Shown: positions 11,913-26,523 of the stretch, piece after piece
Layout of the letters: the number at the start of each line of letters is the position of its first letter
Numbering within the stretch: position 1 is the stretch's first letter
Assembly (NCBI GenBank): GCA_024275235.1
Contig: JAJRZN010000012.1
Location: 5,279-69,278 of the forward strand
DNA: 64,000 bases
From: Deltaproteobacteria bacterium
GTDB lineage: Bacteria; Desulfobacterota; Desulfobulbia; Desulfobulbales; VMSU01
Reading direction: 5' to 3'
The notes under the pieces: generated by a model
What the model saw: the letters and a program-made list of their open reading frames with translations, nothing else
Told to the model about the DNA's origin: nothing
The model's database searches: none
Made by a program: the position numbers and the translations under genes

Positions 11913-11923
11913 AATTGTATTTT

Positions 11924-11955
11924 GTTTCAATTCGCGCCCCCGCATGGGGGGCAAA
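11924..11955 (-). repeat. orphan degenerate type I-C CRISPR repeat (psi-repeat)
   Basis: gtttcaattcgcgcccccgcatggggggcaaa compared with the array repeat gtttcaatccacgccccccgcatggggggcgac. The stem-loop and the ATTGAAAC end (minus-strand sense) are retained. It has the same polarity as the array, about 0.87 kb beyond it. Confidence 0.75.
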
Positions 11956-12022
11956 TCTCTCCGAAACTTGCCCCAATGTATGGAGAACATTTATACAGTT
12001 TTTGTATGTAACTTGCAAACAA

Positions 12023-12051
12023 CGGTTCATCCCCGCGGGTGTAGGGAACAT
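12023..12051 (-). repeat. isolated type I-E-like CRISPR repeat (29 nt)
   Basis: cggttcatccccgcgggtgtagggaacat. In minus-strand sense it ends ...CGGGGATGAACCG, close to the E. coli K-12 I-E repeat end ...CGGGGATAAACCG. It has a CCCCGC/N4/G-rich quasi-palindrome. Confidence 0.6.
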
Positions 12052-12108
12052 ATCGACAAGGGTTGGGATCATGCGCCGGGGGCCTCAGTAACAAAGGAGG
12101 TCAATAAG

Positions 12109-12657
12109 ATGGCGGCCAAGACCCAACAATGGGACTATACCATTGCCAAGGCATATATGCGGAGTGTACCGACTGGGCGGCGTGACGCCTTTGCCAAATC
12201 CTACCAGTCGCTACCTTCTGTTGCCGATGATATACGACGCTACGCCAGGCGGGCACTTGATAACAAAACCGCCGCCGGGATGCCGCCCTACAACAAGACC
12301 ATGGGGCTGCTCACCGGCAAGGACGCGGCCAGGGTTAAGGAGCTGACCGGCCGGGATGTGGGGTTATATGACTACGCACTCGATCCCAGCAGTATTGGAC
12401 ATATCAGGAGGCAGCACGGCGAAGCCGCCGGGGAGCTTGCCAGGGGCCAGCGCTTAGTGACCGCATCTGACTACTCGGCATTGCCGGGGATATTGAACGC
12501 CCCGGACTTAGAGGAATACGGCGTCTTGTCGGATGTCGGCCATCCGGTGGTGAGATATAAAAAGAAGATTGACGGGGAGTTATATACCACCGTTTTTGAA
12601 ATACGAAAAAAGAGAAGAATGCTGGTCTTGCAGAGTCTGTGGATAAAACGGCCCTGA
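12109..12657 (+). CDS. free-standing nuclease-toxin-like protein (PBECR-type Barnase/EndoU/RelE-like RNase fold suspected)
   Basis: AAGGAGG lies 8 nt upstream of the ATG. It has 182 codons. The motif pattern LDPSSIGHIRRQHG...VTASDYSALPGILNAPD...VVRYKKKIDGELYTTVFEIRKKRRMLVLQSLWIK resembles PBECR domains of phage/ICE polyvalent proteins. This assignment is from memory and has not been searched. Confidence 0.5.
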   Translation: MAAKTQQWDYTIAKAYMRSVPTGRRDAFAKSYQSLPSVADDIRRYARRALDNKTAAGMPPYNKTMGLLTGKDAARVKELTGRDVGLYDYALDPSSIGHIRRQHGEAAGELARGQRLVTASDYSALPGILNAPDLEEYGVLSDVGHPVVRYKKKIDGELYTTVFEIRKKRRMLVLQSLWIKRP

Positions 12658-12780
12658 TTTGTCCCCAACCTCAACGTCCGAAACGGCTTCGCGGTATGAA
12701 TGCGACGGCACAATGCCCAAATCAGGAACCAGATAAACATTATAGCAATGAAAACCATAAAAATCAACGATCAGGGAATA

Positions 12781-12801
12781 CGGTTCGTCCCCACGGGTGT
12801 G
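12781..12801 (-). repeat. truncated type I-E-like repeat fused to the terminal I-C repeat
   Basis: cggttcgtccccacgggtgtg matches the first 21 nt of the 12023-12051 element (2 mismatches). It runs directly into the degenerate I-C repeat. Confidence 0.55.
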
Positions 12802-15038
12802 TTACTGACACCCCCGCATAGGGGGCAACCATTGCAGACAGCGGAACAGGTAAAATGCAGTATGTTTCAATCCACGCCCCCCGCATGGGGGGCGACGTAC
12901 GAGCAACGGTGCTGCCGGCATGATGGGTCGTTTCAATCCACGCCCCCCGCATGGGGGGCGACTAATCCTATCGTTTTTTGCCGTCCGCCCTGCCAGTTTC
13001 AATCCACGCCCCCCGCATGGGGGGCGACGGCTGCAGTCCGACATCGAGCATTTTAAAGACAGTTTCAATCCACGCCCCCCGCATGGGGGGCGACGACGGA
13101 GTTTCCCCGGAGACGGCTAAACTGTATGAGTTTCAATCCACGCCCCCCGCATGGGGGGCGACACTAAAGGTGATATAATATGTCCGCATATAAAGTAGTT
13201 TCAATCCACGCCCCCCGCATGGGGGGCGACGTATGACAACAATGTAGACATCTCCTGTATCCCGTTTCAATCCACGCCCCCCGCATGGGGGGCGACGAAT
13301 AACCCCCAAGATGATGGACGACAAGATTAGTGTTTCAATCCACGCCCCCCGCATGGGGGGCGACATCCAAACTCAGTCGGCTTGGCACTATCATACCATG
13401 TTTCAATCCACGCCCCCCGCATGGGGGGCGACCAGGGTTAAGTTGGTTTTTGTCACCAATTAAAATGTTTCAATCCACGCCCCCCGCATGGGGGGCGACC
13501 TAATTGTGGCGGGGTGGTAGAGGAGACCGATGATGTTTCAATCCACGCCCCCCGCATGGGGGGCGACAACTGTAAATATTCTCGTTGTCGATCAAACAAA
13601 ATGTTTCAATCCACGCCCCCCGCATGGGGGGCGACTGCGGTATGTTTTGTTTTGCGTCATGCCAATTTTGTTTCAATCCACGCCCCCCGCATGGGGGGCG
13701 ACTTGGTTGACAAAATAGGTGATCCTGATAGCATCGTTTCAATCCACGCCCCCCGCATGGGGGGCGACGGTGATCTATTTTAATTTAGAGGTAACTGGTT
13801 ATGTTTCAATCCACGCCCCCCGCATGGGGGGCGACAGGCGTGATAACCTTGGCCTCTCTGCTATGTTTGTTTCAATCCACGCCCCCCGCATGGGGGGCGA
13901 CGGCACGGCGGGCTGGTTATCTCAAACGTTGTACGGTTTCAATCCACGCCCCCCGCATGGGGGGCGACTGAGTAAAAAAAATGGTTGGGTGCCGATAGAT
14001 AAGTTTCAATCCACGCCCCCCGCATGGGGGGCGACTTCCCGCCGATATTTATCATACCAGCAGGGAGATTGTTTCAATCCACGCCCCCCGCATGGGGGGC
14101 GACCGTGGTTTTCTTGTTAATGCCATATTTTTCTCCTGTTTCAATCCACGCCCCCCGCATGGGGGGCGACTGTATGCGCTGGGAGCAGGTGCGGGGATGT
14201 GCTGTTTCAATCCACGCCCCCCGCATGGGGGGCGACTATATGTCACCAGGGGATCTGGTAGCAGCTATATGTTTCAATCCACGCCCCCCGCATGGGGGGC
14301 GACCAAAAGCCCCCAGGTCGGCTGCGGTTTTTGAGTGTTTCAATCCACGCCCCCCGCATGGGGGGCGACTGATCCGGCTAAATACGTGCCGGTTGAGACA
14401 TTTGTTTCAATCCACGCCCCCCGCATGGGGGGCGACGCAACGAGCTGATCTATGGCGTTGACGACAGGAAGTTTCAATCCACGCCCCCCGCATGGGGGGC
14501 GACGAAATAGGCCGTCTGCTCGGCAAAGGGGAGCTTGTTTCAATCCACGCCCCCCGCATGGGGGGCGACTCTTTCCTTGTGGGCAGGCGGCCCACTGAAT
14601 TCGTTTCAATCCACGCCCCCCGCATGGGGGGCGACAACGGAGCGAATGTCGGTTCGCGGTGTGCGAACCTGTTTCAATCCACGCCCCCCGCATGGGGGGC
14701 GACACTCAAAGAAATTAGCGTTGAGGGTAAAGTAAAAGGTTTCAATCCACGCCCCCCGCATGGGGGGCGACATGATGTGGAGCTGCTTTTTGCTGTTGTT
14801 GCTGTTTCAATCCACGCCCCCCGCATGGGGGGCGACCGCAGTAGCTTTGATTTGCACAGTGGCGGCAAATGTTTCAATCCACGCCCCCCGCATGGGGGGC
14901 GACCTCGGTAACATATGTTGGGATTGACACCGGCGGGTTTCAATCCACGCCCCCCGCATGGGGGGCGACGTTGCCGAGACAGTTACTGCCCCGGCGTTTG
15001 TTGTCGTTTCAATCCACGCCCCCCGCATGGGGGGCGAC
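12797..15038 (-). CRISPR. type I-C CRISPR array: 33 identical 33-nt repeats plus 1 degenerate terminal repeat, 33 spacers of 32-36 nt
   Basis: The repeat on the plus strand is gtttcaatccacgccccccgcatggggggcgac. In transcribed sense it is GTCGCCCCCCATGCGGGGGGCGTGGATTGAAAC (8-bp GC stem, 4-nt loop, ATTGAAAC tail typical of I-C). The first perfect repeat is 12864-12896 and the last is 15006-15038. Period is 65-69 nt. The degenerate terminal repeat is 12797-12829. cas2 lies on the 15-kb side, so that side is leader-proximal. Confidence 0.97.
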
Positions 15039-15458: not shown

Positions 15459-15749
15459 CTATATCAACAATAACCCTTCCTGCTCCACCCCTCCTTTTGC
15501 CCCCACATGCTCCACCCGCCGCTGCCAGTTTGAGCCGAGAAAATAAAAACGCAGGCTATCGGTTTTTTGATTAATTTCGTCCACCAGTTTTTGCCGCATA
15601 ACCGCCCACTGAGCTGGATCAACAATGCACTCAAAGACAGAGAATTGCACCCTTTGGCCATAATCCTTACAGGTCTTGGCAACTCTGCGTAACCGGCGTC
15701 TGCCGGCCTTATCCATTGTGGAAACATCATAGCTCACCAACACAAACAT
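15459..15749 (-). CDS. cas2: CRISPR-associated endoribonuclease Cas2
   Basis: 96 aa. MFVLVSYDVS...RVQFSVFEC is the typical Cas2 ferredoxin-fold signature. It is adjacent to cas1 and the array. Confidence 0.95.
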   Translation of the reverse strand: MFVLVSYDVSTMDKAGRRRLRRVAKTCKDYGQRVQFSVFECIVDPAQWAVMRQKLVDEINQKTDSLRFYFLGSNWQRRVEHVGAKGGVEQEGLLLI

Positions 15750-15758
15750 AACTCCCTC

Positions 15759-16790
15759 CTATTGCCAGCAGAAAACTGGATAACCGTCAATATCGCCCCG
15801 AATATACCTGGCCAGCAACAAGGCTTGAGTATGAAACAAGAGGCCGACGGGCATCTTCTCCCGTAAAAACGGATGGGTGATTATATCCTGCTTCCTTTTC
15901 TGGTAGGCCACAAGCAGCGTCTTGCGGGTATCGTCGCTCATAATAACCGCCCCGCCCGCCGCCTTCTTAAAACCCTTGCGGTTAACCTGCCCCAGGTTAA
16001 TCAACGATAAGACCAGGCGGTCAGCAACATAGGGGCGGAACTCCTCCATCATGTCAAGTGCCAGACTTGGCCGCCCCGGCCGATCACGGTGCAGAAAGCC
16101 CACCGCCGGATCGAGGCCGACACATTCAAGGGCTGAACGTATATCGTGCATCAACAACATATAGGTGAAAGACAAGAGACTGTTCACCAGATCCAGCGGT
16201 GGACGCCGACTCCGTTCATGAAAGCTGAAATCATCCTTCTGGGCAACAATGAGATGATCAAACACCCTGAAATAAACCTGAGCCGCCTCACCCTCAAATC
16301 CCCGCATCTTATCAAGGGGGATGTCTATTTTAACGTGCATGAGAATGGACGAAATACGATCCGCCGCCGCCTTCACCGCATCGCCGTCCACCTTATCAAG
16401 ATGATCCCGTAATACCCGCCGTAACACCTTGCGGCAGTTGGAAACTTTGCCGATAATAACCGGCCTTGCCATGTGTGCTGACTGCCGCAAATCGTCCGCC
16501 CAGCGATATTGTTCCCGACGCAGCAAAACATTACCGGAAACCGGCCCCTGAACCCTGGCCAGAAAACGACCGTGTTCGGTGAGAAAACTGACGGTGACAT
16601 CCCGCTCGGCGCAAAATCCCATGAGGAATGGACTCATGGATACCTGTCCAAAACAAACAATACCATCCAGGGTGTGGACAGGTAGCTGCAGGCGGGTCTT
16701 TTTATCGACCCTAACCACCACAGTTTCACCTTCTTTGGCCAGATATGCGCCCTGAGTTGTCACAAAAAGGGTATTAAGATGTTTTTTCAT
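15759..16790 (-). CDS. cas1: CRISPR-associated endonuclease Cas1 (I-C type)
   Basis: 343 aa. It has the Cas1 pattern (LNTLFVTTQGAYL..., ...NSLLSFTYMLL..., ...DMMEEFRP...). Its start overlaps the cas4 stop (ATGA). Confidence 0.95.
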   Translation of the reverse strand: MKKHLNTLFVTTQGAYLAKEGETVVVRVDKKTRLQLPVHTLDGIVCFGQVSMSPFLMGFCAERDVTVSFLTEHGRFLARVQGPVSGNVLLRREQYRWADDLRQSAHMARPVIIGKVSNCRKVLRRVLRDHLDKVDGDAVKAAADRISSILMHVKIDIPLDKMRGFEGEAAQVYFRVFDHLIVAQKDDFSFHERSRRPPLDLVNSLLSFTYMLLMHDIRSALECVGLDPAVGFLHRDRPGRPSLALDMMEEFRPYVADRLVLSLINLGQVNRKGFKKAAGGAVIMSDDTRKTLLVAYQKRKQDIITHPFLREKMPVGLLFHTQALLLARYIRGDIDGYPVFCWQ

Positions 16791-17425
16791 AATGCCGCGG
16801 CCCTATTGAGATATTGTTCAACCCGCCGTTTTTTCTCCAGAGTTCTGGGCAGACAGATGTCCTTGAATGAGCAGGTATCACACTTCTTTGAATAGACCGG
16901 CGCAGGGGTCACGGCATTGTCAAAGAGCCGGTGCAGACGCAGAGCCGTATCCTCTGTCTGCCGCCGCAGTTCTCCGGTGAACTCCACCTTCTGCCGCCGC
17001 CGTTTTTTACCGTAGAACAACGCCCCTTGGGGAATGATAAGATCAAGCGTTTCTTCAAGACAGAGGGCCTGGGCGCAAAGCTGCACCTTGTCACAGTTAT
17101 CCTTTTTAGGCCGCCCCCGTTTATGCTCCACCGGAAAAGGAAGCCAGCGGGGATTACCCTCAGGCCGGCGGTGAAATTCAACCGCATCCGCCTTACCGAT
17201 AAGCCCAAGCCGCAGAGAGCGAAGGGGCAAGGCAAATTCAACCCGAATATCACCGTGCGACTCGCCACCGCTTCTATCTACCCGTTCGTGCATAATTCGC
17301 CCCTGGGCCGTAAAAAGATTTTCCACCCAAAGCTGTTCAATATGAATTAAGGCACATTGCCGTTCACAAAAGAGAAGATGCTGAAGCGCCGACAGGGGCA
17401 GAAGATCGTCTTCGTTATACATCAT
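16787..17425 (-). CDS. cas4: CRISPR-associated exonuclease Cas4
   Basis: 212 aa. It has an N-terminal Cys (LLFCERQCAL) plus a C-terminal CDTCSFKDIC cluster (four-Cys Fe-S pattern of Cas4) and a RecB-like nuclease core. Confidence 0.9.
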   Translation of the reverse strand: MMYNEDDLLPLSALQHLLFCERQCALIHIEQLWVENLFTAQGRIMHERVDRSGGESHGDIRVEFALPLRSLRLGLIGKADAVEFHRRPEGNPRWLPFPVEHKRGRPKKDNCDKVQLCAQALCLEETLDLIIPQGALFYGKKRRRQKVEFTGELRRQTEDTALRLHRLFDNAVTPAPVYSKKCDTCSFKDICLPRTLEKKRRVEQYLNRAAAL

Positions 17426-18408
17426 TCATCGGTGTTGGTGATTAAGTTGGCAATCAGCCGTATCAAAATATCCTTCTGGGCCGGATCGCTGGCCGCCGTG
17501 AGCAGAGTCAGGGCGACCAGGGCATTATCGGAAAATCGGCGTTCATCCAACCGGCCGTTTTTTTCAAGAAACAGGAGAAAGAGGAATGTAGCGATCCGCT
17601 TGTTCCCATCGCTGAAGGGGTGATCCTTGATGACAAAATAGAGAAGGTTCGCCGCCTTTTCCGCAACTCCGGGATAAAGATCATGGCCGCCGAAGGTCTG
17701 CTGAACAGCGCCAAGAATGCCCGCCAGACCTTCACCCCGCTCCTGGCCGAAAAGCTCGGTCGCTTAGCCCTTGCCAGACAGCTCTTTTTTCAATGAGGTG
17801 ATGGCGGATCGTGCTTCGGAAAGCTCAATAAGTACCTTGCTCGCTGCAACAGCCTTAGGAAGGGCAAGCGCGTCCTCATCATACTGCAAAAGAAGGTTCC
17901 AGGTTTTGGCATACCGGCTCACGATACGCAGAACGGCCCGGCCCTCGTCATTCAACAATTCATTGCTATCCAGGGTATTGGCAAGAAGCGACAGCACCTG
18001 CCGCATTTCCTCAGTTCCTTTTTCGGCAAGGCGTTTCTGATTGACGGTGAAGCCGCGCACGAGATGATCTTTCAACACGGAGGTGGCCCAGATGCGGAAC
18101 TGGGTGCCGCGTTTGGAATTTACCCTGTATCCGACAGAGATAATGGCATCCAAATTATAAAAATTTGTTCGATATGTTTTGCCGTCAGAGGCAGTATGTG
18201 CAAATTTTGCACATACTGCCTCTTTATCCAACTCGCCCGTTCGAAAAATATTATTAATATGCTTCGTCACAACACTTCGCTCCGTCCTGAAGACAGAGGC
18301 AATCTGTTTTTGTGTAAGCCATACAGTTTCATCTTTCAACTGCACGTCAATGGCCGAACTTCCGTCCTCAGACTGGTATAAAACAATTTCACCAAGATGA
18401 GCGTTCAT
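17422..18408 (-). pseudogene. RhuM-family protein with C-terminal Fic/Doc-like domain, interrupted by an in-frame TAA at 17764-17766
   Basis: The N-terminal part (from Met at 18408, MNAHLGEIVLYQSEDG...YRVNSKRGTQFRIWAT) is RhuM-like. The same frame continues after the TAA as ATELFGQERGEGL...DHPFSDGNKRIATFLF (HxFxDGNKR Doc/Fic motif) to a TGA at 17422 that overlaps the cas4 ATG. Confidence 0.75.
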
Positions 18409-18592
18409 ATTGAGATTCCTGTTAATTTCACGACCTTTTAAGTCGCTTGACACTTTCAGGCTCGGTCAGATAGTTTTCAGAACTTACCACTTTCCTGTTA
18501 GTTTCAAGCTCCAGATTAGTTCTGGCATCACCGGCAATTTTGCCACCCTTTCGGGCTGCTGTTTTATTTTAATCAAAGTCATTGGCATCCTT

Positions 18593-19252
18593 TTATCTGG
18601 CGATCTCAGTGGTGGCAGCCTCTCCCAGCATGGAGAAAATCGACTCAAGATCGGTCATGTGATCGCGCAGATTATGTCGTTTCAGGCCCTTAACTTTCTT
18701 ATATTCAGAGGGGGTGATGCCGAAGGTTGCTTTGGAAATCTCAGCGGTGAGAATAGCGTATTCAGGGTCTTCTTTTATGCCGCGTTTCTGCCATTCATCT
18801 GTCAACTCATCCCGAACGACAATACCACGCATCCATTTCTCTATCCAGGCATCGGAATAGCCCTTGGCACGGTAAATGGCTTTGGTGCGCTTGCTGGCCA
18901 GTTCCGGGTCTTCAATTTCCTGTACCCGCTCATAACCGACCTTGGCCAGCCAGCGTTTGAAGGGCTCTGCTTTGGGAGATGGAATGGATTGGATGATGCG
19001 GAAAAGGCCTTCGGTGTTGGCGCATAACATCCGCTGCACCCCGCCGGTAGTCTCAATGGGAAGGGTATGTACAATTTGTACCCACCCTTTAGCCAACTCC
19101 GGATCACGGCGTTTCATACGTTGGATATATTGCTTGGGGTCTTTCGAATCAATGAGTGCAAGCACCACATCCTGCACAACAAACCACCATTCCTCATTGT
19201 GCAGTATCCGACGGATTCCCTTGTTTTTAAAAACTACCAGTTTATTTTCCAT
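18593..19252 (-). CDS. Bro-N domain protein (phage antirepressor-like), copy 1
   Basis: MENKLVVFKNKGIRRILHNEEWWFVVQDVVLAL is a Bro-N signature. GGGGAGGA precedes the ATG at 19252. The start overlaps the fic stop by 11 nt. It is a paralogue of 27533-28372 (shared SPKAEPFKRWLAKVGYER core). Confidence 0.8.
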   Translation of the reverse strand: MENKLVVFKNKGIRRILHNEEWWFVVQDVVLALIDSKDPKQYIQRMKRRDPELAKGWVQIVHTLPIETTGGVQRMLCANTEGLFRIIQSIPSPKAEPFKRWLAKVGYERVQEIEDPELASKRTKAIYRAKGYSDAWIEKWMRGIVVRDELTDEWQKRGIKEDPEYAILTAEISKATFGITPSEYKKVKGLKRHNLRDHMTDLESIFSMLGEAATTEIAR

Positions 19253-20072
19253 GATCGTCCTCCCCACCCCGTTGCCGCTGTTTCTCCTGCGCCGCTTCCA
19301 CTAACGACAATGATTCCTGCCAGGATTTTTGGCAAAAGGCAATGAAGGGCTTTAAACTCTCCAAATACGACAAAAGTTCATCACCGCCCCGGACTTGCCC
19401 CGCTTCAAAATGATATGCCGAAAGCAGATCAATATATTCCTTGCGCTGTTCCCTTGGAATGATTATTGGCGGAAGTCCTGCCTGTAAAACCGGAAGATTG
19501 GCCACCAAACGAGCCATACGGCCATTGCCGTCAAAAAAAGGATGAATACGGACGAAGGTGACATGCAGACAGGCATATGCGGTTACTGCTTGTTCTGTAT
19601 CCTCAGAACGAACCTGCCGACTCACATCATGATATAGATCAAACCAACGCTCCATGAGGGCTGGAACGTCATCGGGGGGAGCATAATCAAAAATAATCTG
19701 TTTGCCAGCCACAACCCCGGTGGTGGAATTTGGTTCTCTCTTCCAGGCCCCGACAGGCTTATAGACATCAACAACCACCTCAGTCTGTACCGCCGCATGA
19801 AGGGCAAAGAGTTCCGACTCCCCCAACTCTTTACCCTCCTGGAGCAGCTGATAAAGAAGATCAATGGCCTTGGCATGCCCCACCACCTCCTGATGATCTT
19901 TGAGGGGTTTACCGGATATGGTCAGCCCCTCCTCAAGGACAAAGGCAGTCTCGCCAAGGGTGAGGGTATTGCCCTCTATGGCCGTGGAACTATGAGTCCA
20001 CAGGTTGCGGAGCTGGATGAGCAGGGTTTGGCGGAGATCGGGGTCTATGTTGGCAAGAAACGATAGGTGCAT
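19242..20072 (-). CDS. Fic family protein (class II, with N-terminal inhibitory motif)
   Basis: It has the canonical active-site motif HPFFDGNGRMAR and an N-terminal STAIEG matching the [ST]xxxE[GN] auto-inhibition helix. The start was chosen at Met 20072 (GAGGA upstream), 10 nt after the cas7 stop. Confidence 0.85.
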   Translation of the reverse strand: MHLSFLANIDPDLRQTLLIQLRNLWTHSSTAIEGNTLTLGETAFVLEEGLTISGKPLKDHQEVVGHAKAIDLLYQLLQEGKELGESELFALHAAVQTEVVVDVYKPVGAWKREPNSTTGVVAGKQIIFDYAPPDDVPALMERWFDLYHDVSRQVRSEDTEQAVTAYACLHVTFVRIHPFFDGNGRMARLVANLPVLQAGLPPIIIPREQRKEYIDLLSAYHFEAGQVRGGDELLSYLESLKPFIAFCQKSWQESLSLVEAAQEKQRQRGGEDDHGK

Positions 20073-20082
20073 ATAAAAATCC

Positions 20083-20934
20083 TCAAAAACCATCAATGAT
20101 TTCGGGTGGATCAATTTCTTTAACTGACTCAATAGAAATATTAACCCCGGAACTTTCCTCTATAATTTTTAAGCTTCGATGAACCTTAGCTGATGAAACT
20201 TTACCGTTGGGACATTTATGATCCCACCAGACAACCTTAAGAACCTCCATGCTTCCTTCTGGTCGTGCAGAGGATGCGTCATTTTCAAAAAGTTTCGGTA
20301 GAATGTCTTTTACGATTTTGGCATCGTCATCACTAAAACCTGTTTTAGAGGCAAGTTGCGGGTTCATGCTTCCAAAAAACGCATATGTCCCGTGATCCAC
20401 ACGATGCTTAATTCACATCGTATCAGAACTTTTTTTCTTTCCGTCACCCTCACCACTAACACTTTTGGTTATTTGTGTACTGGTTATATCCACCGGAGAT
20501 ATAGAAAACGCTGTATGAACTGAAACCGGCCCTCTAATTCCAATTGAGACTCCTGCGCCTTTTTTGTCGCCGGCATAGGCAAAGACTTGGCCAAAGGCTC
20601 TGACATCAAACCATTTTTCACAAACCGCATCAGCAATTTCTCTTGATGTTTTAGTATTATCAAATATTTTTTTCCCGCTAATATCTGTAGCCTTTTCAGC
20701 ACGTTCACGCAGACTATTGCATTCATCCAATTTATTGTCATCAGATTGTACAAAAATATCTTTACCCTTTTCCATAAGACGGTTCCGAATTTTCCGTTTG
20801 ATACATACATCAGAGACTTCTCCAATCCTGTCATAATTTGTCCGAGGGCGGTTTCCATTCAGGGGGTCACCATTTGGATTGGCATTTTTTACGGTGAAGA
20901 TTACAGCAAAATCAATTTTTTTCGTTAAGCTCAT
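20083..20934 (-). pseudogene. cas7: Cas7 (Csd2, type I-C backbone subunit) interrupted by an in-frame TGA at 20413-20415
   Basis: The start is at Met 20934 with AAGGAGA upstream. The N-terminal part reads FAVIFTVKNANPNGDP (Csd2 signature). The junction reads ...KKSSDTM*IKHRVDHGTYAFFGSMNPQLASKTGFSDDDA...FENDASSARPEGSMEV, which is continuous Csd2 family sequence in one frame. Confidence 0.85.
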
Positions 20935-21316
20935 CGTTTGTCTCCTTATTTGCATTATTTTCAGGATTAAAAGCTAACCGTTGGCAGTGAAAACCTAAAA
21001 GGAATTCCCCGGATAATGAACTGTCGGACGAATAACCTTCCACGTCGGTGAATAAACCATGAATCAAATCCATTTCCTTTTCATACTTATTGCTTCGACT
21101 CAATCTTGCCTTGTATGGGACAAGGGCTAATTCAATAGTTTTCCAGGTGCTACTTGGGCGTTCAGCAAACCTTTGCATCAATTTTGTTGCGCTTGTTTGT
21201 CTATTTTTACTGTTTTCACTTGCGACATAAAGCGCAGTTGATTCCAAACAATCCGCAACAGCCAACAAACGCCCGTACAAATAGTCCCTGGTCTTTCGTT
21301 CTCGTTCTAGTCCCAT
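20912..21316 (-). CDS. cas11: candidate internally translated small subunit Cas11c (in frame within the 3' end of cas8c)
   Basis: An in-frame ATG at 21314-21316 is preceded by AGGGAGGA at 7-8 nt (plus strand tcctccct, 21324-21331). It would give 134 aa (MGLERERKTRDYLYGRLLAVAD...). Type I-C systems are known to make Cas11 from an internal start in cas8c. Confidence 0.55.
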   Translation of the reverse strand: MGLERERKTRDYLYGRLLAVADCLESTALYVASENSKNRQTSATKLMQRFAERPSSTWKTIELALVPYKARLSRSNKYEKEMDLIHGLFTDVEGYSSDSSLSGEFLLGFHCQRLAFNPENNANKETNDELNEKN

Positions 21317-23275
21317 CGTATAATCCTCCCTTTCTTTGAAATAATATTTGTAAAGTCCACAAGCAATCCCCAATGCCTTCTGCCAGGCCCAATCTGGAAG
21401 ACTGTATCTCTGAACCGCCTTTCTGATACAAGATTCAACTATATCCCAAGCGAGAGGCACTCCATCAATTACGCACGGTATCAAACGTTCAACCGTTGTT
21501 TTTTGGACATTGTCATCGACCTTGATGAGATCATCATCTTTGGTTCCATAAGCGGCTTGGGCAATATCTTTTGGGGATGGAGCACCATAAAATTCCTTGT
21601 CTTTTGAAAAATGCTGAAGCCAAGCACACCCCTTATGCCAGGTTTCTATTCTTTTTAAAAAATCAGAACCAGTCAGTTCCCGGTAGTAGGTCAACACCAT
21701 CCGGCCCGGAGTCGCAGAATCGACTCCCATGACAATAATTTCATCTGCACTGCCCAGCTTTACGCTATACCCTGAAAGATACTGAGAAAGGCGAACACCA
21801 AAATCTTGCGCAGTAAATCCGTTCTGTATTCTTGCTCCCGAGGAGGCTTCATTTATCGTTGAATCATCGTTTAACAAATCATCGCTGTCCACAAGCGGGT
21901 CGGGTATATCCATGCCGGATACCGCCCATGCAACAATAGCCAATTTGGGCTCATTTTTAACAAAAAACACTTTACCTTGTCTTCCAAGCAGCCAACGTAA
22001 TGCACTGTGCGCCTTTTGAGCAATAATGACATCAACACCACAAACTTGATATTCATCTGTGAACCGACCCCTAAATGTAAATCCAGAAGTGTCATTTGAT
22101 GAAATTAGCTTTGCTCCATCATTGGCGGATCGAATCATCCGTGGATATTGTTCCGGCTGAAACTTCTGACATCCTGACTTCGATTCTCCCGAAACAAAAC
22201 AAAATGTTTCATACTTTCTGGTGCTAAGATAGTAGTCAATCCAACTTTGCCAAACAGACTTATCAAATTGAAGATCAGAAGATCTCTCCCCTGGGATCTC
22301 AACACACCAACGAATAAATACGTCTATTTGGGTCTGACCTTGCCCTAATGCTCTAAATATATCCGGCTTTTCTTCTCTTCTCCCATGCCATTTTTTAAGG
22401 AGGGTTCCTGTCTCATCATCAATATAGAGGACTTTTTTTCTTACCAGGTCAGTAATTAATTTTCCTTTACGAATGTATTTATAAACTGCTTTTATTTTTT
22501 CGTTTGCAAAACCTGACTCAACCCACTCTTCTAACACTTCTAAGTATCCAGCATAGCCAGCTTCAATTGAAGGGTAAATAAATTCCAAAATAGCGGCTTT
22601 CAAATGAACGTTTTCTCTGTCATGAAAATTGTCAGCATTATCAACTCTTTTTAGCAAATATATATATTGTTTTTTCTCTTTTCTTTTCTTTTCAGTTAAC
22701 AGATCATCCTCTTTTCGAATCAATGAATTTTTAGGGTTCAACAAATTATAGTAAATTTGATCAGTTTGGCGTCGTCTAATATCCTCCTCCATGATCGAAG
22801 CAAACAACTTCTTTTGTCTACTGAAATTATTTTCTGATTCAAGTATTCTTTGATTTTCTCTTGAAATTCTGGCTAAACATCCTTGTTTATCCTTACTGCC
22901 ATCATGCAATAAATTATTAAATGATTTTTCATTCCCTTTGAATTTAACTAACAATGAATGAAAGTAGTGACCTTTAGTCCCACCATATTTCTCATAATCA
23001 GCAGCAATATACTGTAGCTGCTCGGCTAAAGGATGAGGAGCGCAACCACTTGTTCTCCCCGCAGAGCTTTCCGTTGCAGGCAAAATAGTTTTCGCATCAT
23101 TTTCAGAGATAACAGAAGCTCTCTTGAATACACCTTGCCCATCAACCACGACTTCTACATGTGCACGTTTTTTTGTTGTGTGAAATATTGGCAATAAAGG
23201 AATTTTATCATTTGGATCGCCGATTTTGTCAGTATTACTTTCATACGTTTGGTACAGCTTCTCAATCCAGCTCAT
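20912..23275 (-). CDS. cas8c: Cas8c (Csd1) large subunit, unusually long
   Basis: The MSWIEKLYQTYE N-terminus is typical of Csd1. It lies between cas5 and cas7. It is about 787 aa from Met 23275. It overlaps cas5 and cas7 at both ends. Confidence 0.85.
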   Translation of the reverse strand: MSWIEKLYQTYESNTDKIGDPNDKIPLLPIFHTTKKRAHVEVVVDGQGVFKRASVISENDAKTILPATESSAGRTSGCAPHPLAEQLQYIAADYEKYGGTKGHYFHSLLVKFKGNEKSFNNLLHDGSKDKQGCLARISRENQRILESENNFSRQKKLFASIMEEDIRRRQTDQIYYNLLNPKNSLIRKEDDLLTEKKRKEKKQYIYLLKRVDNADNFHDRENVHLKAAILEFIYPSIEAGYAGYLEVLEEWVESGFANEKIKAVYKYIRKGKLITDLVRKKVLYIDDETGTLLKKWHGRREEKPDIFRALGQGQTQIDVFIRWCVEIPGERSSDLQFDKSVWQSWIDYYLSTRKYETFCFVSGESKSGCQKFQPEQYPRMIRSANDGAKLISSNDTSGFTFRGRFTDEYQVCGVDVIIAQKAHSALRWLLGRQGKVFFVKNEPKLAIVAWAVSGMDIPDPLVDSDDLLNDDSTINEASSGARIQNGFTAQDFGVRLSQYLSGYSVKLGSADEIIVMGVDSATPGRMVLTYYRELTGSDFLKRIETWHKGCAWLQHFSKDKEFYGAPSPKDIAQAAYGTKDDDLIKVDDNVQKTTVERLIPCVIDGVPLAWDIVESCIRKAVQRYSLPDWAWQKALGIACGLYKYYFKEREDYTMGLERERKTRDYLYGRLLAVADCLESTALYVASENSKNRQTSATKLMQRFAERPSSTWKTIELALVPYKARLSRSNKYEKEMDLIHGLFTDVEGYSSDSSLSGEFLLGFHCQRLAFNPENNANKETNDELNEKN

Positions 23276-24041
23276 TTTGTAGCGCCTCCTCATTGATTCC
23301 TATAGATTTGGGAGGATTGGGTATCATATCACGCACAAATTTCCGCATGGTACATTCCTCTGGACGTATAAACCGAATGACCCCTTTTTTCATAACTGGT
23401 TTCCAGAAACGACTATGGAGACGATATTCCCCATTCTCATCTGGCTTACCATATTCAGTTGTTTTTCCCGTTTCATCGGGATAATCAAATCCATGAAACA
23501 TGATGCCGTAATCCAGACGCTCAATATCATCATACGCTCCATCTCCCTGACCGAAATCACACGGCTCGACATATCCCTGGCATTCTCGCGCCCCCAAAAA
23601 GATATCCTGCCTCCCACCTCTTTCTATCATCCGTTGAGCAATCTGAAAATGTTTACCATCAATCCGGTCGCTAGCCATATCTTCCCTAAACTTATTCCAT
23701 TTGAAATGGGCTTTAACCTGATATTCAACATCTGCAAGATAGGTGTACATTGCCAAGGTGTTGAAAGATTCTTGCTTTTTTGTTGGATTACGCCGTGAAG
23801 GATAAATACCTCCGTAATTAAGTGGTTTGACACTCTTGGCTTCGGTTCTGATAGGTTTCATGATTCTAACCGCATCAATAATCCAGATTAAGGTAGGCTT
23901 CCAGTACACCGATTTAAGAATTCCTTTTAATACCTCGTAAGTAGGAATGTGGTAGGAACATTTTTCACCACCTATTTTTGTTAATGGATCAGTAAAGAGA
24001 GCGTGTCGCCCACTTATTTTAAATTCAACGTTGTTTCTCAC
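23262..24041 (-). CDS. cas5: Cas5d (type I-C pre-crRNA processing subunit)
   Basis: 259 aa. MRNNVEFKISGRHALFTDPLTKIGGEKCSYHIPTYEVLKGILKSVYWKP is the Cas5d N-terminal signature. Confidence 0.9.
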   Translation of the reverse strand: MRNNVEFKISGRHALFTDPLTKIGGEKCSYHIPTYEVLKGILKSVYWKPTLIWIIDAVRIMKPIRTEAKSVKPLNYGGIYPSRRNPTKKQESFNTLAMYTYLADVEYQVKAHFKWNKFREDMASDRIDGKHFQIAQRMIERGGRQDIFLGARECQGYVEPCDFGQGDGAYDDIERLDYGIMFHGFDYPDETGKTTEYGKPDENGEYRLHSRFWKPVMKKGVIRFIRPEECTMRKFVRDMIPNPPKSIGINEEALQNELD

Positions 24042-24051
24042 TCGGACCTCC

Positions 24052-26523
24052 TTATGCGTTTAAAAATTCCATAGGTGAAACTGGCTCTTCACTCACGCCA
24101 AACTCTCTACTATAGTGCTGTTGGTCTAAGTGCAATATTCCGTAGTCGCTTTGCGTCTGAAATAACACCCCTTTTCTTATTAAAACCTCCTTCAGATAAG
24201 GAAAAATATTCACAGAATACTGTTGGGCAGCTTCCAGAAGCTTTTTTTCTTCCTTCAAGGATAATTTTGATGATAGTTTCATAATGATTGATTTCGCTTC
24301 ACCATTAAAGGGCACCATAATTCCTTCGGTCGGCGCATCAATAACTCGGAAATTTTTTCCTGCGGTCTTAAATGACTGCCATAAATAATAAGGTGGCTTT
24401 GCCTTATCGTTAGATCTGCTATATGCCGCAAACGATTCAAAGTTTGTAGACAATAAAGATAGCATGTCATCATCACGGCCAATTTCATTCCGAGATAGCC
24501 GATAACTCATTTCATGGGATCGCTGAAAAAAATAATACTTATAAAATCGTTTCATGGCGTTGGGGCCAATTAGGTCATAATCAAACTCTTCTGGCGTTTT
24601 TCTAAACTCATCAAGAATGCGTAGCGTAACCTTTTGGGCTATCTTCATCTCCCGCAGGTTGGCAAGATTCTCTGCTTTAAGGTTAACAATCTGAACCACA
24701 CCCAACCCATTTTTCTGTAACCCACTTCGGTTACAACGTCCCGCCGCCTGAGCAATCGAATCCAGTCCGGCCAGGCATCGAATAACCGCCCCAAAGTCAG
24801 CGTCAACACCAGCCTCAATAAGCTGTGTGCTTATACAGATAACGGGTTGAGGGTTGACTGGATCGAGATCATCAAGCACCCTGCCCAATGTATCTTTGCG
24901 ATGTTTCGGACACATGGATGTACTGAGGTGAAATACATTTTTGAACAGCCTCTTGCAAATTACATACAGATTTTTTGCTGTAGCCTTGGTGTTGGCAACA
25001 ACCAAAACGCTTCCCTTGGCCTGAAGAAGATCCATGACACGCTCCGCCAGCTCATCTTCCATCCAACCTCCATCTTTTAAGCAATCCTGGACGTTAACCC
25101 GTTTTAACACCTTATAGAGTGGGGGATAATCAACTATCTCAAGTTCACTAGAATATGGGACCGCCCCCTTAGAAGCATCAACACTATGCAAAAGCGGCTG
25201 AGTTGCTGTACAGAAAACGACTGTGGAAGAACAAATTCCCGTCAACAAATTGATAGCATTGTTAAAAAGATGGACTGTCTTAATAGGCAATGTTTGAATT
25301 TCATCAAAAATAATGACTGATTTAGCCAACTGGTGCATACGACGTACGCTACGTGTTCCACCACTAAACAATGTGTCCAGAAATTGAACTGATGTGGTAA
25401 ATACAATTGGCGCATCCCAATTTTCTGAAAGAATGCGATTACGCTGAGTGTCTTTATCTGGAACCAAGTTTGAATGGTGTTCCAAGACTATTTCATGGGA
25501 AACAGCAGCGAAAATTTTGGCCACCTCAGAGGCATTCTGGTCAATAATTGAAGTATAGGGAATAACATAAATTATTCGGTCAAGTTTGTGTTTCATTGCA
25601 TGATGGAGAGCAAAACGAAGGCTGGCAAATGTTTTGCCACCGCCAGTTGGCACCGTCAGATAATAAAGTCCTTGTTTGCCACTTGCCCTCTGCATACACG
25701 ACAACGAAACTTCGCACCTTTTCTGGTCAATCATATTTTTAATTCTAAATTTTTTGGATTCAAAACAATCGATCAATTTAAGCCAAGATGGATATTGCCC
25801 AAGGTAGCGCAATTTCGCATCTTCCGGATTGTCAAAATCGGCAGTACTTATCCGGTCAGCATCAATCAAACAACTGAAAAGAAAACGAGTCAGCAACCCT
25901 TTTGCGAAGAGCCGTATTTGTCCGTCAAAGAGCCCATGAATTTGGCTAATAACTGCTTTTAGCTGCTCATTTTTTTCATTTGAATTGATGATATTGTTAA
26001 TACTGTCTGCAATAGATTTATCGGTTTTTTCTTTTACTTCAAAATAGTGAGTTAACGCAGCATCTTTTGTCAAACGGATAGTTAATTTATCCTCACCAGA
26101 TATATCAAGCAAATCAATTAATCCAGAATGGTGTGAGACTCCACATAATGCGATAATTTCTTTTAATATTCTGCCAATCTTGATTTCTTTACTTAGGGAT
26201 TCACAAACCCACTGAGCTCCAGCGGTAGAATGGTCTATTTGCCCCCTGAGCGGCTCTGGATTCATATAACCCCGGTCTCCTTTACAAAGTAACCCTACCG
26301 CAGATTTGATATAGCGTTGAAATACAAAACTATATTTCCCTACGTCGTGCAATAGACCTAACAGTGTTCCTATTTGTCTCAAGCCTATTTTGCTCGCAAA
26401 ATCTCCCGAAAAATTAGCAGCCTCATTGAGATGACTTTCCAGCGAATGAATTAGCCACTCGCCAGATACTTCATCTTGACGAGCGTGAGCAATTACTGAT
26501 GAACCCATTCCTCCTCCATTCAT
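24052..26523 (-). CDS. cas3: Cas3 HD nuclease / DEAD-box helicase
   Basis: 823 aa. It has an HD domain (LLGLLHDVGKY, ...SHHSG), a helicase Walker A (LTVPTGGGKTF), a DEIQ box (IIFDEIQT) and a C-terminal helicase domain. Confidence 0.92.
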   Translation of the reverse strand: MNGGGMGSSVIAHARQDEVSGEWLIHSLESHLNEAANFSGDFASKIGLRQIGTLLGLLHDVGKYSFVFQRYIKSAVGLLCKGDRGYMNPEPLRGQIDHSTAGAQWVCESLSKEIKIGRILKEIIALCGVSHHSGLIDLLDISGEDKLTIRLTKDAALTHYFEVKEKTDKSIADSINNIINSNEKNEQLKAVISQIHGLFDGQIRLFAKGLLTRFLFSCLIDADRISTADFDNPEDAKLRYLGQYPSWLKLIDCFESKKFRIKNMIDQKRCEVSLSCMQRASGKQGLYYLTVPTGGGKTFASLRFALHHAMKHKLDRIIYVIPYTSIIDQNASEVAKIFAAVSHEIVLEHHSNLVPDKDTQRNRILSENWDAPIVFTTSVQFLDTLFSGGTRSVRRMHQLAKSVIIFDEIQTLPIKTVHLFNNAINLLTGICSSTVVFCTATQPLLHSVDASKGAVPYSSELEIVDYPPLYKVLKRVNVQDCLKDGGWMEDELAERVMDLLQAKGSVLVVANTKATAKNLYVICKRLFKNVFHLSTSMCPKHRKDTLGRVLDDLDPVNPQPVICISTQLIEAGVDADFGAVIRCLAGLDSIAQAAGRCNRSGLQKNGLGVVQIVNLKAENLANLREMKIAQKVTLRILDEFRKTPEEFDYDLIGPNAMKRFYKYYFFQRSHEMSYRLSRNEIGRDDDMLSLLSTNFESFAAYSRSNDKAKPPYYLWQSFKTAGKNFRVIDAPTEGIMVPFNGEAKSIIMKLSSKLSLKEEKKLLEAAQQYSVNIFPYLKEVLIRKGVLFQTQSDYGILHLDQQHYSREFGVSEEPVSPMEFLNA

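What the first reader, a model, noticed from the sequence alone, without database searches (positions are those of the whole stretch)
11924..12863. Patchwork CRISPR trailer: repeats of two different subtypes bracket a gene-sized insert
I read the array in its transcribed (minus) direction.
- The last perfect I-C repeat (12864-12896) is followed by one normal-length spacer and a degenerate I-C repeat (12797-12829; the hairpin half is kept as cccccgcatagggggcaac).
- The distal part of that repeat is overwritten by 21 nt (12781-12801, cggttcgtccccacgggtgtg) that look like the first two thirds of a type I-E repeat.
- 729 nt further on (12023-12051) sits a full-length 29-nt copy of the same I-E-like element. 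In minus-strand sense it ends CGGGGATGAACCG; the E. coli K-12 repeat ends CGGGGATAAACCG.
- After another 67 nt comes an orphan I-C repeat (11924-11955) that still keeps its stem-loop and the ATTGAAAC end.

All four elements have the same polarity as the main array. The 729-nt interval is not a spacer, because it carries a complete, oppositely oriented gene with a strong RBS. No I-E cas gene is present in the window. I am not aware of a described array with this I-C / I-E / gene / I-E / I-C layout.
Basis: partly seen in the sequence, partly recalled or inferred. Interest (0 to 1): 0.8.

Follow-up and report, generated by a model that had tools for sequence, protein, structure and literature searches.

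The report
Giant phage-derived spacer in CRISPR relic
The far end of this bacterium's type I-C CRISPR array encloses the fossil of a type I-E array. One "spacer" in that fossil is a 729-base piece of a Mu-like phage instead of the usual 32 bases, and similar oversized phage pieces sit in the same position in other I-E arrays, so the spacer-inserting machinery may occasionally insert very long DNA.

Summary

- **The 29-nt element is a type I-E repeat.** It differs by 2 of 29 bases from the repeat of a clean I-E array (L002). Arrays of that repeat family have a 61-nt period and lie next to cse2, cas7e, cas5, cas6e and cas1.
- **The 67-nt interval is more I-E array.** It holds a 32-nt spacer and a third, decayed I-E repeat in exact 61-nt phase.
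- **The 729-nt interval is phage DNA.** It is one contiguous piece of a Mu-like phage, 86.7% identical to phage contig L003, and the homology stops exactly at the two I-E repeat edges. It carries the PBECR3 nuclease module of a MuF-PBECR3 head protein, a conserved phage intergenic element, and 11 codons of the G-like gene.
- **It sits in spacer position.** It is not an inserted gene cassette.
- **Other arrays show the same thing.** At least three other I-E arrays (L002, L009, L057) carry 0.3-1.3 kb Mu-like fragments between repeats, with different junctions and orientations.
- **The junction base differs.** The repeat's 29th base is G before 97% of normal spacers but before only 4 of 10 long inserts.

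Best explanation: oversized, PAM-independent integration by I-E Cas1-Cas2, later stranded between the last two I-C repeats. The origin is inferred, not shown. No I-E cas genes lie in the window, so the relic is probably inert.

The parts
11924..11955 (-). Orphan (terminal) type I-C repeat. It lies 11 nt upstream of the His-phosphatase start codon (11912).
   Evidence: 27/30 aligned columns identical to the I-C repeat, with stem and ATTGAAAC kept. Homology to the syntenic relative L159 stops at 11931, inside this repeat, so it marks the edge of the CRISPR segment.
11962..11990 (-). Decayed terminal type I-E repeat.
   Evidence: 18/29 to the I-E consensus, exactly 61 nt before the repeat at 12023. 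Only 4 of about 128,000 window positions score exactly 18/29, this one included, and two more (the repeats at 12023 and 12781) score higher.
11991..12022 (-). Normal-length (32-nt) I-E spacer.
   Evidence: Its length and phase fit the 61-nt I-E period. No match to the phage loci fetched.
12023..12051 (-). Full-length type I-E repeat, slightly decayed (minus sense: ATGTTCCCTACACCCGCGGGGATGAACCG).
   Evidence: 27/29 to the repeat of the I-E array on L002. That repeat family has a 61-nt period in the loci returned by the repeat search (120 stretches matched) and sits next to I-E cas genes in L090.
12052..12780 (.). 729-nt contiguous fragment of a Mu-like phage in spacer position ('giant spacer').
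   Evidence: 86.7% identical to phage contig L003 6001-6727, 74% to the array-embedded copy on L002, and 69% to prophage L001. Homology ends at the repeat edges. No other Mu-like DNA lies in the window.
12052..12657 (+). PBECR3 nuclease module: the 3' 201 codons of a MuF-PBECR3 polyvalent head protein. An internal Met lies at 12109 behind AAGGAGG (12094-12100).
   Evidence: Pfam PF18812, 49.8 bits against a cut-off of 30. Homologs conserve IDKGW...MAAKT upstream of the Met. The gene is fused to Phage_Mu_F in L003 and is a separate 198-aa gene in L001. All invariant columns are kept.
12658..12747 (+). Conserved phage intergenic element (between PBECR3 and G) with small covarying hairpins.
   Evidence: Conserved across divergent Mu-like loci. 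12 predicted pairs, 2 of them with compensatory changes. No Rfam family.
12748..12780 (+). First 11 codons of the phage G-like (Phage_tail_S) virion morphogenesis gene.
   Evidence: Aligns to the start of the Phage_tail_S genes of L003 and L002.
12781..12801 (-). Partial I-E repeat (the 3' 21 nt in the transcribed sense).
   Evidence: 20/21 to the L002 repeat. Its first base, C (12781), is shared with phage L003 at the junction.
12797..12829 (-). Degenerate penultimate I-C repeat, abutting or overlapping the partial I-E repeat.
   Evidence: 17/19 over the hairpin half; the distal half is degenerate.
12830..12863 (-). Last normal I-C spacer (34 nt).
   Evidence: Sequence reading.
12864..15038 (-). 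Main type I-C array: 33 identical repeats. Spacers 14504-14536 and 14370-14403 match phage L003 perfectly.
   Evidence: TTC precedes both protospacers.
15459..26523 (-). Type I-C cas operon: cas3, cas5, cas8c, cas7 (in-frame TGA), three embedded candidate defence genes, cas4, cas1, cas2.
   Evidence: Pfam and PADLOC; stop codons.

Best explanation
Window 11956-12801 is the decayed trailer end of a type I-E CRISPR array. Read on the minus strand, its order is: partial repeat, 729-nt insert, repeat, 32-nt spacer, terminal repeat.

The oversized 'spacer' is a contiguous piece of a Mu-like phage, taken from the region where the MuF-PBECR3 gene meets the G-like gene.

Most likely origin (inferred): the I-E adaptation integrase Cas1-Cas2 joined the two ends of a long phage DNA fragment to the two borders of a repeat. 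This is the reaction used for a 32-nt spacer, but without PAM selection and without the length ruler. It duplicates the repeat on both sides of the insert.

The I-E cas genes are absent from the window. The relic now lies between the penultimate and the terminal repeat of an I-C array that has recently targeted the same phage group.

Today it is probably inert. At most it is transcribed as the 3' tail of the I-C pre-crRNA, antisense to the PBECR3 ORF.

What is shown: the anatomy, the phage origin, the recurrence in other arrays, and the junction statistics. What is inferred: integration by Cas1-Cas2, the order of events, and the lack of function.
For: 1. **I-E identity.** The elements score 27/29, 20/21 and 18/29 against the L002 repeat and lie in 61-nt phase. 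The same repeat family borders cse2, cas7e, cas5, cas6e and cas1 in L090.
2. **Phage origin.** The insert equals L003 6001-6727 at 86.7% identity. Homology starts at 12052 and ends at 12780/81, the repeat borders. L003 and L001 show Mu-like synteny: portal, MuF, PBECR3, G, protease.
3. **Recurrence.**
   - L002 has a perfect I-E array with a 1309-nt Mu-like insert between two perfect repeats, collinear end to end with L003.
   - L009 has three long inserts of 368, 1105 and at least 584 nt. Two of them match Mu-like phage genes; the 1105-nt one matched none of the phage proteins tested.
   - L057 has a 303-nt insert carrying the start of the G-like gene.
   - Junctions and orientations differ between loci. 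The window copy is closer to free phage L003 (87%) than to the L002 copy (74%), which indicates independent captures.
4. **Junction chemistry.** The 29th repeat base is G before 2873 of 2959 normal spacers (97%) but before only 4 of 10 long non-IS inserts. In E. coli I-E this base comes from the PAM of the incoming DNA (established knowledge, recalled). So the long inserts entered at the same phosphodiester bond but without PAM selection.
5. **No alternative source of repeats.** 27 viral PBECR3 loci and 7 phage loci carry no I-E repeat-like sequence.
6. **No I-E cas genes** in the window.
Against: - No experiment shows that Cas1-Cas2 can integrate fragments of 0.3-1.3 kb. The known ruler mechanism argues against it.
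- The sample is small (about 10 inserts), and several come from short metagenome contigs.
- The window's own junction base is G, so the window alone cannot separate this model from recombination through normal spacers.
- GAG precedes the last 32 nt of the window insert, and AAG precedes the last 32 nt of the first long insert of L009 (the 368-nt one). This hints that at least one end may have been measured from a PAM (sequence reading).
- Every Mu-like insert includes the 5' end of the G-like gene. Random oversized capture does not explain this.
- How an I-E fragment came to lie between two I-C repeats is unresolved.
- The PBECR3 ORF is intact. The window-branch substitutions are 17 synonymous to 18 non-synonymous, with no excess of non-synonymous changes over the phage (L003) branch (15 to 9; not significantly different). 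Either a recent capture or retention under selection would explain this.
Confidence: 0.55

Rival explanations
1. Double crossover or gene conversion. The array once held two ordinary spacers against the phage. Homologous recombination between these spacers and their protospacers replaced the array segment between them with the phage segment.
For: - The window's junction base is G, as before normal spacers, and L003 has the same base there.
- GAG precedes the last 32 nt of the window insert, and AAG precedes the last 32 nt of the first long insert of L009, the 368-nt one (read).
- This lineage does carry spacers against this phage region, although they are I-C spacers.
Against: - 6 of 10 long inserts are preceded by a non-G base, whereas 97% of normal spacers are preceded by G. 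Recombination inside a normal spacer would keep the G.
- No AAG-like motif lies at the predicted position in L002 or in the second long insert of L009 (the 1105-nt one).
- It requires two spacers in the same order and orientation, with only 32-bp homology arms.
Confidence: 0.12
2. Selected cassette. The phage fragment is retained because it does something. Two possibilities: the PBECR3 RNase acts as a toxin held in check by antisense array transcription (a back-up abortive-infection or addiction module in the spirit of CreTA), or the conserved phage intergenic element acts as a decoy.
For: - The ORF is intact with all invariant residues. Its internal Met sits behind AAGGAGG, where the phage has AACGAGG.
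- The window-branch substitutions are about 1:1 non-synonymous to synonymous.
- The left edge of the insert coincides with the start of the stand-alone PBECR3 gene of L001.
- All five Mu-like inserts share the region around the start of the G-like gene.
- The gene is antisense to array transcription in the window and in L002.
Against: - Orientation is mixed: sense in L057 and in both G-containing L009 inserts.
- L057 lacks the PBECR3 domain.
- There is no PADLOC hit and no sigma-70-like promoter upstream of the ORF on the + strand.
- The flanking I-E repeats are decaying and their cas genes are absent.
- n = 5 inserts, and three of the four loci were found through PBECR3 homology, which is an ascertainment bias.
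Confidence: 0.12
3. Assembly artefact. The contig is a metagenome chimera joining array and phage reads.
For:
- L002 and L009 are short metagenome contigs.
- Phage L003 is targeted by this array, so host and phage probably co-occur.
Against: - The window's I-E repeats are decayed and non-identical, so they cannot collapse in an assembly graph.
- The insert is only 87% identical to the known phage.
- The phages share no k-mer with the repeats.
- Both junctions are base-precise in four independent assemblies with different junctions.
- L057 is part of a 30-kb contig.
Confidence: 0.05
4. Mobile-element ends. The I-E-like repeats are attachment or terminal sequences of a mobile cassette or phage that integrates into CRISPR repeats, as described for a Streptococcus pyogenes prophage.
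For: Prophage integration into CRISPR repeats through a repeat-like attP is documented (bioRxiv 10.1101/2020.10.09.333658, from the listing).
Against: - The insert is an internal head-gene fragment, not a phage end.
- Mu-like phages transpose and have no repeat-like att site; no repeat-like sequence was found in 34 phage loci.
- The insert boundaries differ in every locus.
- A normal 32-nt spacer and a further repeat follow in 61-nt phase.
Confidence: 0.04

Closest known systems
Canonical type I-E spacer acquisition (E. coli Cas1-Cas2)
   Same: - The insert lies exactly between two repeat copies, with no leftover spacer halves.
- The junction is at the 28/29 position of the repeat.
- The repeat family, the 61-nt period and the neighbouring cas genes (in other genomes) are I-E.
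   Different: - The length is 729 nt (303-1651 nt in the other loci) instead of 32.
- The PAM-derived G is not enforced: 4 of 10 long inserts against 97% of normal spacers.
- All long inserts lie one to a few repeats from the trailer end.
Long 'spacers' (100 nt or more) noted in E. coli, P. aeruginosa and S. thermophilus arrays (Kupczok et al. 2015, PMC4524480)
   Same: They are inter-repeat intervals far longer than a spacer.
   Different: Most of those were reported to resemble transposons, meaning elements that inserted themselves. Here the inserts are internal fragments of phage structural genes with repeat-exact junctions. Two of the long intervals I found (L039 IS-like, L021 HipA-like, both judged by eye) are probably of the transposon or gene-insertion kind.
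Prophage integration into CRISPR repeats (S. pyogenes; bioRxiv 10.1101/2020.10.09.333658)
   Same: Phage DNA is flanked by CRISPR repeats.
   Different: That case is a whole prophage entering through a repeat-like attP and an integrase. Here it is a sub-genic to two-gene fragment of a transposable phage with no att-like site.
CreTA, mini-arrays and solitary repeat units (recalled from the literature, not tested here)
   Same: Degenerate repeats lie next to a toxin-type gene near a cas locus.
   Different: - Those have spacer-sized pseudo-spacers that guide Cascade to a promoter.
- Here the repeats belong to a different subtype from the resident cas genes.
- The interval is 729 nt.
- The toxin is a phage-derived protein domain.
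MuF-toxin polyvalent proteins of phages (Pfam Phage_Mu_F + PBECR3)
   Same: The ORF is 82% identical in protein to the PBECR3 end of the L003 MuF-PBECR3 protein and passes the Pfam threshold.
   Different: The MuF domain and all neighbouring phage genes are missing. The module sits in a CRISPR array.

Membership tests
Type I-E CRISPR repeat/array | 29-nt (28+1) repeat with a CCCC(R)C...G(Y)GGGG stem and a GGGGATGAACCG-type 3' end | tested here: met
   12023-12051 matches 27/29 and 12781-12801 matches 20/21 to the L002 array repeat. The stem of the full copy is weakened by two changes.
Type I-E CRISPR repeat/array | 61-nt repeat-spacer period (32-nt spacers) | tested here: met
   11962-11990, 11991-12022 and 12023-12051 are in exact phase. 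The family has a 61-nt period in the loci returned by the repeat search.
Type I-E CRISPR repeat/array | Association with I-E cas genes (cse1, cse2, cas7e, cas5e, cas6e) | tested here: not met
   None in the 64-kb window (tblastn). The feature is met for the repeat family elsewhere, in L090. The rest of the genome could not be searched, so this is an orphan remnant of an I-E array and not a working one.
Type I-C CRISPR-Cas locus | cas3, cas5, cas8c, cas7, cas4, cas1, cas2 operon and a 32-33-nt repeat ending ATTGAAAC | tested here: met
   Pfam hits and 33 repeats. cas7 carries an in-frame TGA.
Type I-C CRISPR-Cas locus | 5'-TTC PAM next to protospacers | tested here: met
   Both perfect protospacers in L003 are preceded by TTC.
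CRISPR spacer (in the strict sense) | Foreign-derived sequence lying exactly between two repeats | tested here: met
   Phage homology runs from repeat edge to repeat edge.
CRISPR spacer (in the strict sense) | Length fixed by the subtype's ruler (about 32 nt for I-E) | tested here: not met
   729 nt.
PBECR3 nuclease domain (PF18812) | Profile match above Pfam's gathering score | tested here: met
   49.8 bits against 30, E 3.7e-13.
PBECR3 nuclease domain (PF18812) | Nuclease activity or toxicity | not testable with these tools
   All alignment-invariant residues are kept.
Mu-like (transposable) phage DNA | Collinearity with the portal, MuF, (PBECR3), G, protease/scaffold, major head block | tested here: met
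   L001 and L003 gene order; the insert is collinear with L003.
CreTA-type CRISPR-regulated toxin-antitoxin | Spacer-sized pseudo-spacer between degenerate repeats of the resident subtype, partly matching the toxin promoter | tested here: not met
   The repeats are of a non-resident subtype, and the interval is 729 nt and contains the ORF itself.
Dispersed REP-like element | Many scattered copies in the genome | tested here: not met
   Only the two copies (plus the decayed phased one) in 64 kb.

The most novel reading that the evidence does not exclude
Type I-E adaptation in nature occasionally writes kilobase-scale phage fragments into arrays as 'giant spacers', without PAM or ruler control. 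These are preferentially taken or retained from the central region around gene G of Mu-like transposable phages. Arrays of one subtype can also end up carrying fossil pieces of another subtype's array. If retention is selective, the embedded phage element or PBECR3 toxin would be a new kind of array-borne anti-phage or addiction function.
Probability: 0.3. Interest if true: 0.85.

Novelty: new variant of a known kind. Interest (0 to 1): 0.66.

Why it matters
Spacer length is thought to be fixed tightly by the Cas1-Cas2 ruler, and long inter-repeat intervals are usually dismissed as IS insertions.

Here, internal phage gene fragments of 0.3-1.3 kb lie between repeats with base-precise junctions. 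The junction base behaves differently from that of normal spacers. This occurs in several unrelated assemblies.

If it holds, it would mean three things:
- The integrase can join long DNA in vivo. This bears on the casposon-to-CRISPR origin story and on using Cas1-Cas2 as a DNA recorder.
- Array-finding software systematically breaks or discards such arrays.
- Arrays can preserve datable fossils of phage genes and of lost CRISPR subtypes.

The repeated capture of one phage region also offers a concrete handle on where long free phage DNA ends arise during infection by a transposable phage.

Tried and rejected
- **Exact look-ups.** Look-ups of the ORF, the annotated 225-aa version and the His phosphatase found no encoding contig.
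- **Family libraries.** Rfam found nothing for the I-E remnants or the phage intergenic element. PHROGs and PADLOC found nothing for the PBECR3 module.
- **Spacer matches.** About 3,000 I-E spacers were compared with the phage loci. Only chance-level 13-18-nt matches came back, apart from the two I-C spacers of the window and one L066 spacer. No I-E PAM could therefore be derived.
- **PAM test at the far end of the inserts.** Result mixed: AAG in the 368-nt insert of L009, GAG in the window, nothing in L002 or the 1105-nt insert of L009. Inconclusive.
- **Branch test for relaxed selection** on the window ORF: not significant.
- **Break at the Mu strong gyrase site as the source of ends.** The site lies near genes G and I at the centre of the Mu genome (PMC10052514). 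However, the inserts span the conserved element instead of ending at it, so a simple break model does not fit.
- **Microhomology between the repeat and the phage at the left junction.** Only a 7-of-8 match that is 3 nt out of register (read). Rejected as chance.
- **Viral contigs.** All 27 PBECR3 loci lack arrays.
- **Relatives.**
  - L131 has cas genes 80% identical and a 12-repeat I-C array, with no I-E remnant and an unrelated downstream region.
  - L159 has the syntenic recC and His-phosphatase locus, no array, and only a solitary partial I-C repeat.
  - So no relative was found in which the array could be seen running uninterrupted.
- **Literature.** Searches for long or giant spacers found only the transposon-type long spacers and prophage integration into repeats.


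Full report
**1. What is in the sequence**

Region 11.9-15.0 kb holds a type I-C array of 33 identical 33-nt repeats (12864-15038). Next to it lies a I-C operon with cas2, cas1, cas4, cas7, cas8c, cas5 and cas3.

The array is read on the minus strand. Two of its spacers (14504-14536 and 14370-14403) match a Mu-like phage contig (L003, VAPG01042172.1) at 33/33 and 34/34. Both protospacers are preceded by TTC, the I-C PAM.

Past the last perfect repeat, in the minus direction, the order is:
- a 34-nt spacer
- a degenerate I-C repeat (12829-12797; hairpin half 17/19)
- 21 nt of an I-E repeat (12801-12781)
- 729 nt (12780-12052)
- a full 29-nt I-E repeat (12051-12023)
- a 32-nt spacer (12022-11991)
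- a badly decayed I-E repeat (11990-11962)
- 6 nt
- an orphan I-C repeat (11955-11924; 27 of 30 aligned columns)
- 11 nt later, the start codon of a His-phosphatase gene

The third I-E repeat, in exact 61-nt phase, is new. It scores 18/29, and only 4 of about 128,000 window positions score exactly 18/29, this one included.

**2. The 29-mer is a type I-E repeat**

A homolog of the ORF led to metagenome contig L002. L002 carries a clean array of CGGTTCATCCCCACGGGTGTGGGGAACAT with a 61-nt period. The window elements differ from that repeat by 2 of 29 and 1 of 21 bases.

In Desulfurivibrio (L090) such an array follows cse2, cas7e, cas5, cas6e and cas1.

tblastn with those I-E proteins finds nothing in the window. 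The element has no other copies in the window, so it is not a dispersed REP-like element.

**3. The 729 nt are a phage fragment in spacer position**

The ORF (Met at 12109) has a PBECR3 nuclease domain. Its homologs conserve 'IDKGW...' upstream of that Met, so the homologous coding region starts at 12052, the first base after the repeat.

In prophage L001 and phage contig L003 the gene sits in a Mu-like head block: portal, MuF, PBECR3, G-like (Phage_tail_S), protease. It is fused to MuF in L003 and separate in L001.

Window 12052-12781 aligns to L003 6001-6727 at 86.7%. The alignment stops at both repeat edges, with one shared C at the right edge.

The fragment contains the last 201 codons of MuF-PBECR3, a conserved roughly 90-nt intergenic element with small covarying hairpins, and 11 codons of the G-like gene. 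No other Mu-like DNA is in the window.

**4. It is not unique**

- **L002.** Its array has a 1309-nt gap between two perfect repeats. The gap is collinear end to end with L003 5915-7254.
- **L009.** This is another I-E array, with eight normal units followed by inserts of 368, 1105 and at least 584 nt. The first carries the N-terminal part of the G-like gene. The third carries the PBECR3 end, the intergenic element and the G-like start. The 1105-nt insert matched none of the phage proteins tested.
- **L057.** Found through the repeat alone, it has a 303-nt insert with the same intergenic element and 52 codons of the G-like gene.

Junction positions differ in every case. Orientation relative to array transcription is antisense in the window and L002, and sense in L057 and in both G-containing L009 inserts.

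The window copy is closer to free phage L003 (87%) than to the L002 copy (74%). L002 is 72.5% identical to L003. These are therefore independent captures and not one inherited insert.

Among about 3,016 inter-repeat gaps in the loci returned by the repeat search, I found eight real long ones. Six look like gene fragments and two look like IS or gene insertions, judged by eye. They lie between one and four repeats from the trailer end.

27 viral PBECR3 loci have no repeats.

**5. How the long inserts got there**

Three features point to the spacer integrase.
- The junctions are exact at both repeat borders, and no spacer halves are left.
- The flanking repeats are full copies.
- The 29th repeat base is G before 2873 of 2959 normal spacers (97%), but G in only 4 of 10 long inserts. 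In L009 it is A, A and C before the three long inserts and G before all nine normal spacers.

In E. coli I-E that base is supplied by the PAM of the incoming DNA (established knowledge, recalled). So the long inserts entered at the usual bond but without PAM selection.

Recombination, or an assembly chimera through ordinary spacers, would keep the G. The phages share no repeat-like k-mers with the arrays.

I therefore favour oversized, PAM-independent Cas1-Cas2 integration. The position near the trailer would follow if such inserts are tolerated only when few spacers lie downstream. This is inference.

The weak points are:
- There is no biochemical precedent.
- The sample is small.
- The window's own junction base is G.
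- GAG in the window and AAG in the 368-nt insert of L009 lie just before the last 32 nt. One end may therefore have been measured from a PAM.

**6. The I-C / I-E nesting**

The closest syntenic relative, L159, is 82-86% identical across recB, recC, the hydrolase gene and the His-phosphatase gene. Its homology to the window stops at 11931, inside the orphan I-C repeat. That repeat is therefore the true edge of the CRISPR segment, and the I-E relic lies inside the I-C array's last unit.

L159 has no array. It has only a solitary partial I-C repeat about 0.7 kb upstream of the His-phosphatase gene. L131, from the same metagenome, has the I-C operon and a 12-repeat array without any I-E relic.

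I cannot tell whether the 845-nt I-E piece was itself taken up as an oversized I-C 'spacer' or arrived by another form of recombination.

**7. Function today**

- Without I-E cas genes nearby the relic cannot be processed as I-E crRNA.
- No terminator-like site lies between the array and the His-phosphatase gene. Read-through would therefore be antisense to the ORF.
- The ORF is intact and keeps all invariant residues. Its branch shows 17 synonymous and 18 non-synonymous changes, not different from the phage branch.
- It has a good Shine-Dalgarno sequence but no sigma-70-like promoter upstream and no PADLOC match.

I rate a retained function (toxin or decoy) at about 0.1-0.15.

**8. Organism**

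The closest named RecC proteins, at about 55% identity, are from Desulfosarcina and other Desulfobacterales. Closer unnamed relatives come from a hydrothermal-vent metagenome.

**9. Verdict**

It is partly wrong: the interval is a phage fragment in spacer position, not a gene cassette.

Long inter-repeat intervals are known but were attributed mostly to transposons (PMC4524480). Whole prophages can also integrate into repeats (listing). Repeat-exact, kilobase-scale fragments of phage structural genes, recurring from one region of Mu-like phages, did not turn up in my four literature searches, and I know of no description of them. I file this as a new variant of a known kind.

Noticed in passing
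window 20083-20955 (-): The I-C cas7 (csd2) gene carries an in-frame TGA at codon 181 (..DTM*IKH..), splitting it into two ORFs. Yet the array holds spacers that match a phage contig perfectly. This points to recent inactivation of interference, or to a sequencing error.
   Followed up: partly
window 17437-20132 (-); L090 3449-4438: Three non-cas genes sit inside the I-C operon between cas7 and cas4:
- a Fic/DOC gene (PADLOC SoFic / PDC-S04)
- a Bro-N gene (PDC-S13)
- a RhuM-Fic gene (PDC-S23/S05), which has an in-frame TAA

A 64%-identical RhuM-Fic gene sits between cas6e and cas1 in the I-E operon of Desulfurivibrio dismutans. The same candidate defence gene is therefore embedded in cas operons of two subtypes.
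   Followed up: partly
window 12658-12747; L003 6604-6696; L001 10598-10687; L002 771-860; L009 2443-2532; L057: A roughly 90-nt intergenic element between the MuF/PBECR3 gene and the G-like gene is conserved across Mu-like phages that are only 50-70% identical elsewhere. It has small hairpins with compensatory changes and no Rfam family. It lies in the head-gene block around gene G, the part of the Mu genome where the strong gyrase site maps (near genes G and I, PMC10052514). In three 33-35 kb viral contigs the PBECR3 gene sits at 45-55% of contig length by my arithmetic on the coordinates, but at 15-37% in three shorter ones. Four of the five Mu-like array inserts contain the element, and all five contain the start of the G-like gene.
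   Followed up: partly
L009 1-2642: One short I-E array carries three long inserts in a row at its trailer end, separated by single repeats and one normal spacer. The first and third match Mu-like phage genes; the second matched none of the phage proteins tested. Gene callers read an ORF (P0005) straight through repeat, spacer and repeat. Its N-terminal part resembles the start of a Mu protease by eye, but this was not confirmed.
   Followed up: partly
L159 7455-7477: The syntenic relative has no CRISPR-Cas locus here. It keeps a solitary partial I-C repeat (20/23, ending GGATTGAAAC followed by a second ATTGAAAC) between tRNA-Asp and the His-phosphatase gene. This suggests that a I-C locus was once there or passed through.
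   Followed up: no
L013 1482-1843; L065: Two unrelated genomes (a Rhodocyclaceae MAG and a Methylomarinum MAG) have 307-nt and 377-nt inserts between I-E repeats. Each encodes a small two-helix membrane protein on the antisense strand. The L065 insert also encodes a tape-measure-like N-terminus (weak PHROG hit). In L013 the two repeats stand alone in the chromosome. The junction base is T in both.
   Followed up: no
window 12767-12739 (-): A strong sigma-70-like site (TTGATT, 17 nt, TATAAT, with TG) lies on the minus strand inside the phage fragment, antisense to the PBECR3 ORF. The sequence is nearly identical in phage L003 (one base differs, in the spacer between the two hexamers). It may be a phage antisense promoter or a by-product of the conserved region around the G-like start.
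   Followed up: no
window 11902-12657 (+): The reading frame of the PBECR3 ORF stays open leftwards through the I-E repeat, the 32-nt spacer and the decayed repeat. One public annotation therefore calls a 225-aa protein starting at 11980, whose first 24 residues are translated CRISPR repeat and spacer.
   Followed up: yes
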